Virus record (IMG/VR): IMGVR_UViG_638341086_000015
Location: 1 to 46,383 of that record
Origin: a virus
Lineage: Duplodnaviria > Heunggongvirae > Uroviricota > Caudoviricetes
Direction: 5' to 3' (one strand)
Length of the DNA: 46,383 nucleotides
The notes beneath the pieces are model-generated. The model worked only from the letters and a program-made list of their open reading frames with translations. It ran no database searches and had not been told where the DNA came from. The position numbers and the translations under genes were made by a program. Below, piece after piece: positions 41,971-42,118 of this stretch. Numbering within the stretch: the stretch's first letter is position 1; every line of letters begins with the position of its first letter.

Positions 41971-42118
41971 TGAATTTTGTGATGCGGTGAATGCGGCTGA
42001 GCGCACGCGGAACAGTTAAAACCAAAAACAGTGTTATGGGTGGATTCTCTGTATCCGGCGTTAATTGTTAACTGGTTAACGTCACCTGGAGGCACCAGGC
42101 ACCGCATCACAAAATTCA
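41971..42118. repeat. Perfect 19-bp inverted repeat (TGAATTTTGTGATGCGGTG / CACCGCATCACAAAATTCA) flanking a 110-bp spacer
   Basis: Arms at about 41971-41989 and 42100-42118; spacer contains GTTAAC-TG-GTTAAC; right arm ends 17 nt before a ribosome-binding site and ATG. Confidence 0.5.

What the first reader, a model, noticed from the sequence alone, without database searches (positions are those of the whole stretch)
41971..42118. Perfect 19-bp inverted repeat with 110-bp spacer where the early-left promoter and operators are expected
The arms TGAATTTTGTGATGCGGTG and CACCGCATCACAAAATTCA are perfect reverse complements about 130 bp apart, in the ORF-free interval (41605-42135) after the rex-position genes and just before the first early-left ORF. 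The spacer contains GTTAAC-TG-GTTAAC. The repeat does not resemble the GTAAC-N4-GTTAC operators at the cro side. Candidate interpretations are a long-range RNA stem in a leader, paired binding sites for DNA looping, or a small inverted-repeat mobile element.
Basis: seen in the sequence. Interest (0 to 1): 0.5.

Follow-up and report, generated by a model that had tools for sequence, protein, structure and literature searches.

The report
RNase III stem between DicF and dicB
The inverted repeat is real and forms the long closing stem of a folded RNA domain lying between the small RNA DicF and the cell-division inhibitor gene dicB in a prophage; it is a diverged, unannotated relative of the known prophage RNA STnc100, and its left arm coincides with a published RNase III cutting site.

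Summary
In detail: a perfect 19-bp inverted repeat at 41971-41989 / 42100-42118, about 5e-5 expected by chance. The location premise is wrong. The repressor's operator motif, GTAAC-N4-GTTAC, lies 1.1 kb upstream at 40868-40881. The repeat lies inside the early-left (dicBF-type) operon, between DicF (41910-41961) and dicB (42136-42324).

The arms form helix P1 (21 bp as RNA) of a roughly 150-nt plus-strand domain that also has P2, P4, P5 and a pseudoknot. In 32 distinct relatives from five enterobacterial genera, 96% of P1 positions pair and 12 of 21 pairs show compensatory changes. G.U outnumbers A.C by 48 to 13, which points to plus-strand RNA.

The domain is a sub-threshold relative of Rfam STnc100 (40 bits; cut-off 47). 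A canonical copy (138 bits) lies at 29329-29519 (-). This leader type lacks its own terminator, has a much longer P1, and sits just upstream of dicB, kilR or other genes. It occurs in 4641 of 5426 complete E. coli genomes, including K-12 Qin and Rac.

The published 72-nt, RNase III-made DicF 3' end maps by my arithmetic to about 41980, inside the left arm. DNA looping and mobile-element readings are rejected. The function of the core fold is unknown.

The parts
41910..41961 (+). DicF sRNA gene including its intrinsic terminator hairpin; the U-tract follows at 41962-41966
   Evidence: Rfam RF00039, 76.7 bits against a cut-off of 48. Annotated as DicF in phage Tritos and in K-12.
41969..41989 (+). 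P1 5' strand (left arm of the inverted repeat is 41971-41989). Inferred RNase III cut near 41980|41981.
   Evidence: The 72-nt DicF species made by RNase III (PMC5069750, PMC9438474) ends 19 nt beyond the 53-nt species, which corresponds to about window 41980 (my mapping through).
41993..42008 (+). P2 hairpin, preceded by the conserved junction GGUGAAU
   Evidence: Consensus folding and pair counts.
42009..42056 (+). P3: a 3-bp base (42009-11 with 42054-56) enclosing a region that varies in length and sequence. It contains the pseudoknot 5' strand CAGUUAA at 42013-42019.
   Evidence: Pseudoknot partners covary across the family.
42057..42083 (+). P4 hairpin (42057-64 with 42076-83). Its loop UUGUUAACUGG carries the pseudoknot 3' strand UUAACUG at 42068-42074.
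   Evidence: 5 of 8 pairs show compensatory changes.
42085..42099 (+). P5 hairpin CCUGG-AGGCA-CCAGG, within the family signature TCACC-N-GGAGGCACC-N-GGCACC
   Evidence: The motif is found twice in the window with 0 expected by chance.
42100..42120 (+). P1 3' strand (right arm of the inverted repeat is 42100-42118)
42122..42128 (+). UUGAGGA, containing the dicB Shine-Dalgarno sequence GAGGA (42124-42128). It can pair weakly with the DicF-terminator U-tract plus AA (41962-41968) as an extension of P1.
   Evidence: The predicted probability that the SD is unpaired is 0.17-0.27 when the P1 5' strand is present and 0.64-0.79 when it is absent. This is prediction only.
42136..42324 (+). dicB (62 aa), followed by a ydfD-like gene at 42321-42512
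   Evidence: Pfam DicB 127 bits; DUF1482 88 bits.
40868..40881 (+). GTAACTCTTGTTAC, an exact match to the repressor-operator motif. It is the likely early-left operator, shown here as context.
29329..29519 (-). Canonical STnc100 paralogue with an 8-bp P1 and its own terminator. It lies after three tRNA genes and before a sialate-esterase gene.
   Evidence: Rfam 138 bits; sequence; Pfam SASA for the ORF at 27973-29106.

Best explanation
The two arms are the strands of helix P1, which closes a roughly 150-nt folded RNA domain on the + strand. The domain is transcribed as part of the early-left (dicBF-type) operon, on transcripts that read through the DicF terminator. It is a diverged member of the STnc100/PasD lineage of prophage RNAs, with the same P1, P2, P4 and P5 helices and the same signature motifs, plus a loop-to-junction pseudoknot. 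Unlike canonical members it has no terminator of its own. Its P1 is lengthened from about 8 bp to 19-21 bp, which is long enough to be an RNase III substrate.

RNase III cuts this helix. The cut in the left arm, near 41980, gives the published alternative 72-nt DicF 3' end. I infer a staggered cut in the right arm near 42110. That would release a roughly 130-nt core RNA with a 9-bp P1, the same size as canonical STnc100. It would also leave dicB mRNA with a roughly 25-nt leader.

Shown here: the helix exists, is under selection as + strand RNA, and is homologous to STnc100. Taken from the literature for the near-identical K-12 copy: RNase III produces a DicF 3' end about 19 nt past the terminator. 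Inferred: the right-arm cut, the release of a discrete core RNA, and any effect on dicB translation. The biochemical role of the core fold remains unknown.
For: Context: DicF lies immediately upstream and dicB immediately downstream, with the same layout in K-12 Qin and phage Tritos.

Structure: the minimum-free-energy fold forms the 21-bp P1, with z = -6.8. Covariation in the 22-sequence set: P1 is 96.8% paired and 8 of 21 pairs change on both sides. Covariation in 32 distinct sequences from Escherichia, Citrobacter, Klebsiella, Raoultella and Enterobacter: P1 is 96% paired, 12 of 21 pairs are compensatory, 0 of 500 shuffles reach the observed score, and slid controls pair at only 33-42%. In Klebsiella-type copies the outer half of P1 has a different sequence but keeps about 19 bp.

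Strand: 48 G.U against 13 A.C in P1.

Homology: STnc100 full-length match at E = 3.6e-6; shared 22-nt motif; a model built from leader-type copies finds the canonical copies at 58-71 bits.

Architecture: all 24 long-P1 units lack a detectable terminator and abut an ORF, whereas 50 of 86 shorter-P1 units have a detectable terminator.

RNase III: the 72-nt DicF 3' end arises from RNase III processing of full-length dicBF RNA (PMC5069750; PMC9438474). That 3' end maps to nucleotide 12 of the P1 5' strand. In Gordon 2017 Table S1, position 1649470, which lies inside the unit, has 26 reads in the rnc mutant and 0 in wild type.
Against: I could not read Faubladier 1990. The position of the 72-nt end is therefore my arithmetic from RNA lengths quoted in secondary sources. 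Any 3' end giving a DicF species of 61-81 nt would still fall within the P1 5' strand. I found no data on a cut in the right arm or on a stable roughly 130-nt product. Ragunathan 2023 saw no transcript longer than ydfABC-dicF in K-12, so read-through RNA is rare under laboratory conditions. The Gordon table contains many low-count sites, so that support is weak. The window copy scores below Rfam's gathering threshold for STnc100. The dicF-dicB spacer does not appear in the K-12 Hfq RIL-seq tables.
Confidence: 0.78

Rival explanations
1. Translational gate. The main role of the long helix is to hold the DicF-terminator U-tract against the dicB Shine-Dalgarno sequence, keeping the toxic dicB silent on read-through transcripts. 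RNase III cleavage, or melting of the helix, would relieve this. This reading is compatible with the best explanation and differs only in which effect matters most.
For: P1 can extend by 7 weak pairs (41962-41968 with 42122-42128) that cover GAGGA. In Rac-type copies the U-tract pairs with AAAAA, and the helix reaches the GG of the kilR SD. The predicted probability that the SD is unpaired rises from about 0.2 to 0.64-0.79 when the 5' strand is removed. The downstream genes dicB and kilR are toxic division inhibitors.
Against: The extension consists only of A-U and G.U pairs. The dicB AUG sits in a local hairpin whichever 5' end is modelled. The Rac-type predictions are inconsistent. In Klebsiella, Raoultella and P7 copies the ORF starts 25-46 nt after P1 and no SD contact is possible. 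The long P1 is nevertheless kept in the Klebsiella and Raoultella copies, while the P7 copy has only a 9-bp P1.
Confidence: 0.25
2. Trans-acting small RNA. The domain is simply another copy of an Hfq-binding, base-pairing sRNA like canonical STnc100/EcOnc27/PasD. On this reading the arms are only its closing stem and play no role in operon processing.
For: Canonical members are Hfq-associated sRNAs with RIL-seq or CLASH targets (the Zhu et al. 2026 preprint; PMC12711010). The core fold is shared.
Against: The leader type lacks the terminator hairpin and U-tail that all Pas/STnc100 sRNAs have and that serve as the Hfq site. There is no Hfq RIL-seq signal for the dicF-dicB spacer in K-12. This reading does not explain why P1 is lengthened specifically in the terminator-less copies. 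A family-wide covarying pseudoknot is unusual for a simple seed-pairing sRNA.
Confidence: 0.15
3. DNA-level element: two half-sites bound by a protein that loops the DNA, or operators of the early-left promoter.
For: The arms are perfectly symmetric and about 130 bp apart.
Against: The arms covary to keep pairing rather than to keep sequence. G.U-type changes outnumber A.C-type changes by 48 to 13, an asymmetry that has no meaning for duplex DNA. The arms do not resemble the phage's operator motif, whose left-side copy lies at 40868-40881. The site lies between two genes that Ragunathan 2023 attribute to the single promoter dicBp in K-12.
Confidence: 0.02
4. Small non-autonomous mobile element (MITE-like) with terminal inverted repeats.
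For: The unit is found at up to 9 places per E. coli genome.
Against: There is no flanking direct duplication: the flanks are TTAAAG and TTGTTG. In every inspected locus the unit is co-oriented with its operon and occupies the same syntenic slot: after the DicF or KilS terminator and before dicB, kilR or another gene, in the P1-type ban operon, or in late operons next to tRNAs. Plasmid hits are almost all roughly 85-110 kb, non-mobilizable records of P1-like phage-plasmid size. The interior is conserved and structured, with covarying helices.
Confidence: 0.02
5. Cis-acting modifier of transcription: a put-like antiterminator RNA or a shield against Rho. It would allow polymerase to continue into dicB-recE-xis-int in a lambdoid phage that has no N gene in this position.
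For: No N-like ORF lies between the operator and dicB. The domain sits early in long phage operons. Rho/NusG silencing of kilR is established (my own knowledge of Cardinale 2008 and Barshishat 2018; not checked here).
Against: Canonical copies are followed directly by their own terminators and occur in tandem arrays next to tRNAs. Neither fits a processive antiterminator. I found no experimental hint, and no sequence comparison with HK022 put was made.
Confidence: 0.05

Closest known systems
STnc100 (Rfam RF02076; also called EcOnc27 or sRNA103 in EHEC) and its relative PasD
   Same: The P1/P2/P4/P5 layout is the same, and so are the signature sequences GGUGAAU and TCACC-N-GGAGGCACC-N-GGCACC. 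Both are found in lambdoid and P1-like prophages. A canonical copy lies in the same window at 29329-29519.
   Different: The match is below Rfam's threshold (34-44 bits for all leader-type copies). There is no intrinsic terminator. P1 is 19-21 bp instead of about 8 bp. The domain is embedded between an sRNA terminator and the ribosome-binding site of the next gene, rather than standing alone. There is no evidence of Hfq binding.
RNase III processing of the dicBF transcript in E. coli K-12 Qin (Faubladier 1990, as cited in PMC5069750 and PMC9438474)
   Same: The locus is the same and the spacer is 98.7% identical. The 72-nt DicF 3' end maps into the left arm.
   Different: The accessible literature describes only the DicF end. 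It does not describe the 110-nt-spanning helix, the enclosed domain or its family relationship. I could not read the original paper to see whether the helix was drawn there.
RNase III processing stalks and leader hairpins: the rRNA precursor stalks, the lambda N-leader hairpin and the T7 early intergenic sites (textbook knowledge)
   Same: A long helix is formed by sequences that flank a structured RNA, or that lie just upstream of a ribosome-binding site in a phage early polycistronic transcript. Cleavage separates the functional units.
   Different: Here the stalk encloses a member of an sRNA family, and it lies directly after another sRNA's terminator. The consequence for the downstream gene has not been tested.
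KilS-kilR leader in K-12 Rac
   Same: It is a parallel arrangement: KilS (with a DicF-like 3' part and its terminator), then the same domain, then kilR.
   Different: P1 carries a bulged A. The K-12 Rac copy has a G-to-A change in P5. The downstream toxin is KilR rather than DicB.

Membership tests
STnc100 (RF02076) | Score at or above Rfam's gathering threshold of 47 bits | tested here: not met
   The window copy scores 40.1 bits. K-12 Qin scores 34.4, Rac-SA53 43.8, P7 43.0 and the Klebsiella copy 35.6. None is reported at the gathering threshold.
STnc100 (RF02076) | Significant full-length similarity to the family model and shared core motifs | tested here: met
   E = 3.6e-6 over model positions 1-206. 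The 22-nt motif is shared with the canonical copy, with 0 expected by chance. Model R1, built from leader-type copies, finds the canonical copies at 58-71 bits.
STnc100 (RF02076) | Same helices, supported by covariation | tested here: met
   P1, P4 and P5 show compensatory changes, and 96.9% of positions are paired against 33-42% in the slid controls.
STnc100 (RF02076) | Own Rho-independent terminator, that is, a stand-alone sRNA gene | tested here: not met
   No terminator follows the unit; the dicB SD starts 4 nt after P1. None of the 24 long-P1 units has a terminator.
STnc100 (RF02076) | Hfq-associated, trans-acting RNA | not testable with these tools
   The only available observation is negative: the dicF-dicB spacer is absent from the K-12 RIL-seq tables, and the operon is repressed under those conditions.
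RNase III processing site | About two turns (20 bp or more) of uninterrupted double-stranded RNA | tested here: met
   A 21-bp helix, 19 of them perfect Watson-Crick pairs. The length is conserved at 19-21 bp across genera while the sequence changes.
RNase III processing site | RNase III-dependent cleavage in vivo at this helix | not testable with these tools
   Published for the K-12 copy: the 72-nt DicF 3' end is made by RNase III, and it maps to about 41980 in the left arm. In the rnc mutant, reads at 1649470 number 26 against 0 in wild type. Cleavage of the right arm is unknown.
MITE / inverted-repeat mobile element | Target-site duplication, and copies in unrelated sites and in both orientations | tested here: not met
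   The flanks differ. All inspected copies are co-oriented with phage operons and occupy syntenic slots.
Repressor operators / DNA looping sites | Match to the phage's operator motif and position at a promoter | tested here: not met
   The exact motif is found only at 40057, 40105 and 40868. The arms do not resemble it. No promoter-like site on the + strand was found in 40700-42700.
HK022 put-type antiterminator RNA | Two adjacent stem-loops of about 70 nt that act in cis on RNA polymerase | not tested
   No sequence or structure comparison with put was made. The architecture (a four-helix domain with a pseudoknot, often followed by its own terminator) does not resemble it.

The most novel reading that the evidence does not exclude
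The STnc100/PasD lineage, including this leader type, may not be a set of ordinary seed-pairing sRNAs. It may instead be a class of compact, pseudoknotted structured RNAs with a specific protein or ligand partner. Phages would deploy it in two formats: stand-alone with a terminator, or embedded in an operon and excised by RNase III. In the embedded format it would couple read-through of the DicF or KilS terminator to expression of the division inhibitors DicB and KilR, in most E. coli genomes including K-12.
Probability: 0.2. Interest if true: 0.7.

Novelty: new variant of a known kind. Interest (0 to 1): 0.42.

Why it matters
DicB and KilR are toxic prophage proteins that shape cell division, phage resistance and stress survival, and how their expression is gated is still being worked out. 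This analysis shows that both genes, in K-12 and in about 86% of complete E. coli genomes, are preceded by the same unannotated, conserved RNA domain. The domain is related to an sRNA family that is linked to Shiga-toxin phages. It offers an explanation for the RNase III-made 72-nt DicF species. It also predicts a further RNase III product, a roughly 130-nt core RNA, and a defined 5' end for dicB mRNA. Finally, it adds a covarying pseudoknot to the STnc100 fold. All of these predictions can be tested directly in K-12.

Tried and rejected
- **Promoter and terminator scan of 40700-42700.** It found nothing on the + strand near the repeat. It also missed the DicF terminator, so the scan is of little use here.
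- **RNase III as the enzyme behind the 190-nt DicF precursor.** That cut lies upstream of DicF, not in the repeat, and it initially seemed to argue against the RNase III idea. The separate 72-nt species resolved this.
- **Gordon 2017 site 1418510 in the kilR-sieB spacer.** It lies 8 nt upstream of the KilS 5' end and not in the Rac copy of the domain, so it does not support cleavage of P1 there.
- **Altuvia 2018 supplements.** They are not held. Faubladier 1990 and Faubladier & Bouche 1994 are not held either.
- **Shine-Dalgarno sequestration modelling.** It gave a clear effect for the Qin type but inconsistent numbers for the Rac type, so I kept it only as a rival explanation.
- **Minus-strand RNA.** It folds well because of the palindrome (z = -6.2), but the G.U to A.C asymmetry and the model scores (186 against 33 bits) reject it.
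- **Hammerhead-like core.** I considered this by eye and rejected it: there is no CUGANGA motif and Rfam reported no ribozyme match.
- **Protein searches, structure prediction and the metagenome scan.** These were not needed and were not run.

Full report
**Observation.** The window contains a perfect 19-nt inverted repeat, 41971-41989 and 42100-42118, separated by 110 nt. No other perfect inverted repeat with a gap of 300 nt or less exceeds 13 nt. First-order Markov shuffles of the window reach 15-16 nt in 0.5% of trials, and the expectation for 19 nt is about 5e-5. The arm sequence occurs nowhere else in the window. The motif GTTAAC-TG-GTTAAC is at 42067-42080.

**Context.**
- The repressor (40077-40793, HTH plus S24 peptidase) and a P22-type Cro (39812-40027, minus strand) flank two exact copies of GTAAC-N4-GTTAC, at 40057 and 40105.
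- The only other exact copy in the window is at 40868-40881. It lies just after the repressor's terminator and upstream of a YdfA/DUF1391 gene at 41066-41218. That is where the early-left operator lies.
- Rfam finds DicF at 41910-41961 (76.7 bits). Pfam identifies the ORF at 42136-42324 as DicB (127 bits) and the next ORF as YdfD/DUF1482.
- The interval is therefore the dicF-dicB spacer of a Qin-type dicBF operon. The layout matches K-12 and phage Tritos.

**What the repeat is.** A sub-threshold but full-length match to Rfam STnc100 (40.1 bits against a cut-off of 47; E = 3.6e-6) spans 41959-42168, and its outer helix is formed by the two arms. A canonical STnc100 copy (138 bits) lies in the same window at 29329-29519 on the minus strand. 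It follows three tRNA genes and precedes a sialate-esterase gene, which is the position described for STnc100/EcOnc27/PasD in Shiga-toxin phages (PMC12370729, PMC12711010 and the Zhu et al. 2026 preprint). The two copies share TCACC-N-GGAGGCACC-N-GGCACC, with 0 matches expected by chance.

Folding the + strand gives the following (z = -6.8):
- a 21-bp P1 (41969-41989 with 42100-42120);
- P2 (41993-42008);
- a variable P3;
- P4 (42057-42064 with 42076-42083), whose loop is the first GTTAAC;
- P5 (42085-42099).

**Selection acts on RNA pairing.** I collected relatives from phage records, IMG/VR contigs and bacterial genomes.
- In 22 close relatives, P1 is 96.8% paired and 8 of 21 pairs change on both sides.
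- In 32 distinct sequences from Escherichia, Citrobacter, Klebsiella, Raoultella and Enterobacter, P1 is 96% paired and 12 of 21 pairs are compensatory. None of 500 shuffles reaches the observed covariation score, and sliding the partner columns drops pairing to 33-42%.
- In Klebsiella and Raoultella the outer half of P1 has a different sequence (CAGGCUUUGCAAU... with ...AUUGCAAAGCCUG) but about the same length. The helix length itself is therefore conserved.
- Non-Watson-Crick positions in P1 are G.U 48 times and A.C 13 times. The K-12 copy carries two adjacent wobble pairs. This asymmetry identifies the + strand RNA as the selected molecule. It argues against a DNA-level site and against an antisense RNA.

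**A pseudoknot.** The segment after P2 (CAGUUAA, 42013-42019) is complementary to the P4 loop (UUAACUG, 42068-42074). Across the wider family, the same two positions carry at least ten different but mutually complementary sequences. Examples are AUCAGC/GCUGAU, CCAGUC/GACUGG, CUGGUGU/ACACCGG, ACUGGAUA/UAUCCAGU and GACUGACA/UGUCAGUC. When loops are permuted among units, the fraction with 7 or more contiguous pairs falls from 0.40 to 0.13, and 0 of 1000 permutations reach the observed value. The pseudoknot does not appear in the Rfam consensus line shown. The accessible literature used RNAalifold, which cannot predict pseudoknots.

**Two architectures in one family.** Among 110 distinct units:
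- The 24 with P1 of 15 bp or more (allowing one bulge) have no terminator and abut an ORF.
- Of the 86 with a shorter P1, 50 have their own terminator by a crude detector, and only 4 have a nearby ORF. These short-P1 units can occur in tandem arrays next to tRNAs.
- The long-P1 units form essentially one clade, so these counts are not independent events.

The long-P1 'leader type' sits upstream of dicB (Qin type), kilR (Rac type and Stx phage 75/02), or small membrane and other proteins (Klebsiella, Raoultella, Citrobacter, Enterobacter). The related P7 copy, upstream of terB/tciA in the ban operon, has only a 9-bp P1. In K-12 Rac the order is KilS, then the domain, then kilR. This parallels DicF, then the domain, then dicB. 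The 3' part of KilS is DicF-like at 39 bits.

The domain is present in 4641 of 5426 complete E. coli genomes, at a median of 2 and up to 9 places, and no feature is annotated over it in nearly all of the listed RefSeq records. All tested leader-type copies fall below Rfam's STnc100 cut-off. Plasmid hits are almost all roughly 85-110 kb, non-mobilizable records of P1-like phage-plasmid size.

**Mechanism.** A 19-21-bp uninterrupted helix is the minimum classical RNase III substrate (established knowledge). [quoted passage not shown] Terminated DicF is 53 nt (PMC5069750; PMC9438474).

Using the K-12 annotation (dicF 1649382-1649434), a 72-nt species ends at 1649453. This corresponds to window position 41980, which is nucleotide 12 of the 21-nt P1 5' strand. 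Any species of 61-81 nt would still end within that strand. This mapping is my own arithmetic, because I could not read the original paper.

Gordon 2017 lists position 1649470, which lies inside the domain. It has 26 reads in an rnc mutant and none in wild type. This is weak support, because many listed sites have low counts.

If RNase III makes its usual staggered cut, the right arm is cut near 42110|42111. That would release a roughly 130-nt core closed by a 9-bp P1, the same size as the canonical STnc100 P1. It would also leave dicB mRNA with a 25-nt leader. This step is inferred.

**Possible effect on dicB.** P1 can be extended by seven weak pairs between the DicF-terminator U-tract (41962-41968) and UUGAGGA (42122-42128), which contains the dicB SD. 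Partition-function calculations put the probability that the SD is unpaired at 0.17-0.27 when the 5' strand is present and 0.64-0.79 when it is absent. However, the AUG sits in a local hairpin in every case, and the Rac-type numbers are inconsistent. The Klebsiella-type and P7 copies have the ORF 25-46 nt away. I therefore treat translational gating as a secondary, lineage-specific possibility.

**Rejected readings.**
- Operators or DNA looping: ruled out by location, sequence and the wobble asymmetry.
- Mobile element: ruled out by the lack of a target-site duplication, the constant orientation, the syntenic slots, and the conserved, structured interior.
- Antisense RNA: ruled out by the strand asymmetry.
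- Put-like antiterminator: not tested directly. It fits poorly because canonical copies are followed by their own terminators and occur in tandem arrays.

**What remains unknown.** The function of the core fold is not known. Canonical members bind Hfq and have candidate targets, but no mechanism is established. The leader type lacks the terminator and U-tail that usually serve as the Hfq site.

**Verdict.** The repeat is real and functional. It is the RNase III-sensitive closing helix of an operon-embedded, long-stem, terminator-less variant of the STnc100 RNA family. The RNase III processing of DicF at this place was published in 1990. The family relationship, the conserved helix length across genera, the pseudoknot and the parallel KilS-kilR arrangement are, as far as the accessible literature shows, not described.

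Noticed in passing
window 29329-29845 (-): Three tRNA genes (29599-29845) are followed by a canonical STnc100 (138 bits) with its own terminator, and then by a DUF1737/sialate-esterase gene (27973-29106). This is the late-operon layout reported for STnc100/PasD in Stx phages, but no stx genes lie between the tRNA genes and the esterase gene.
   Followed up: partly
window 34571-34745 (-): A sok antitoxin RNA (Rfam RF01794, 117.5 bits), implying a hok/sok-type toxin-antitoxin module inside the prophage.
   Followed up: no
window 40868-40881: A third exact copy of the operator motif GTAAC-N4-GTTAC lies just after the repressor's terminator (about 40800-40825) and next to a TTGACT hexamer at 40857. 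It is the probable early-left operator and promoter. No convincing -10 hexamer was identified.
   Followed up: partly
window 42132-42150: The dicB start codon lies in a predicted local 7-bp hairpin (AUAAUGG/UUAUUAC region). It overlaps a short direct repeat, AAACGTTATTAC / AAACGTTAATAC, at 42140-42164.
   Followed up: no
window 41816-41886: An imperfect inverted repeat (15 nt, 80% complementary, arms 41816-41830 and 41872-41886) lies about 25-95 nt upstream of DicF. The published RNase III cut that gives the 190-nt DicF precursor would lie further upstream, near 41772, if that species shares DicF's 3' end.
   Followed up: no
L023, L034, L072, L015, L090 (IMG/VR contigs): Tandem arrays of 3-5 canonical STnc100 units with a period of roughly 255-260 nt, next to tRNA genes. 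In L072 an isrI-like RNA is interleaved with them.
   Followed up: partly
L159 (K-12 Rac) 606-703 (-): The 3' part of the annotated sRNA KilS matches the DicF model at 39 bits, below the threshold. KilS therefore appears to be a diverged DicF homologue occupying the same slot.
   Followed up: partly
L002 (phage P7) 2304-2388: A tRNA-Sec-like match just below threshold (46.6 bits against 47) lies immediately upstream of the P7 copy of the domain, in the ban operon.
   Followed up: no
Records MT713136.1 (Aeromonas phage AP1) and PP818812.1 (Actinobacillus phage vB_Apl-pPE4): The Aeromonas record carries sequence 98.8% identical to this E. coli prophage region. The Actinobacillus record matches the domain at 87-89% identity. 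These look like contamination, chimeric assembly or mislabelled hosts.
   Followed up: no
L146, L147, L151, L152 (genome contigs): Metagenome bins labelled Veillonella, Mycobacteriales, Nanosynbacter and Collinsella hold contigs that match the 22-nt Escherichia-type motif exactly. L146 and L151 carry the full domain at 167-182 bits. These are probably mis-binned enterobacterial prophage contigs.
   Followed up: no
window 42605-45076: The 823-aa exonuclease VIII (RecE)-like ORF contains ambiguous bases, which appear as X in its translation. The window holds 8 N in all.
   Followed up: no
window 29874-30587 (-): An AraC-family regulator gene lies immediately upstream of the late-region tRNA cluster, which is an unusual position for such a gene.
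   Followed up: no
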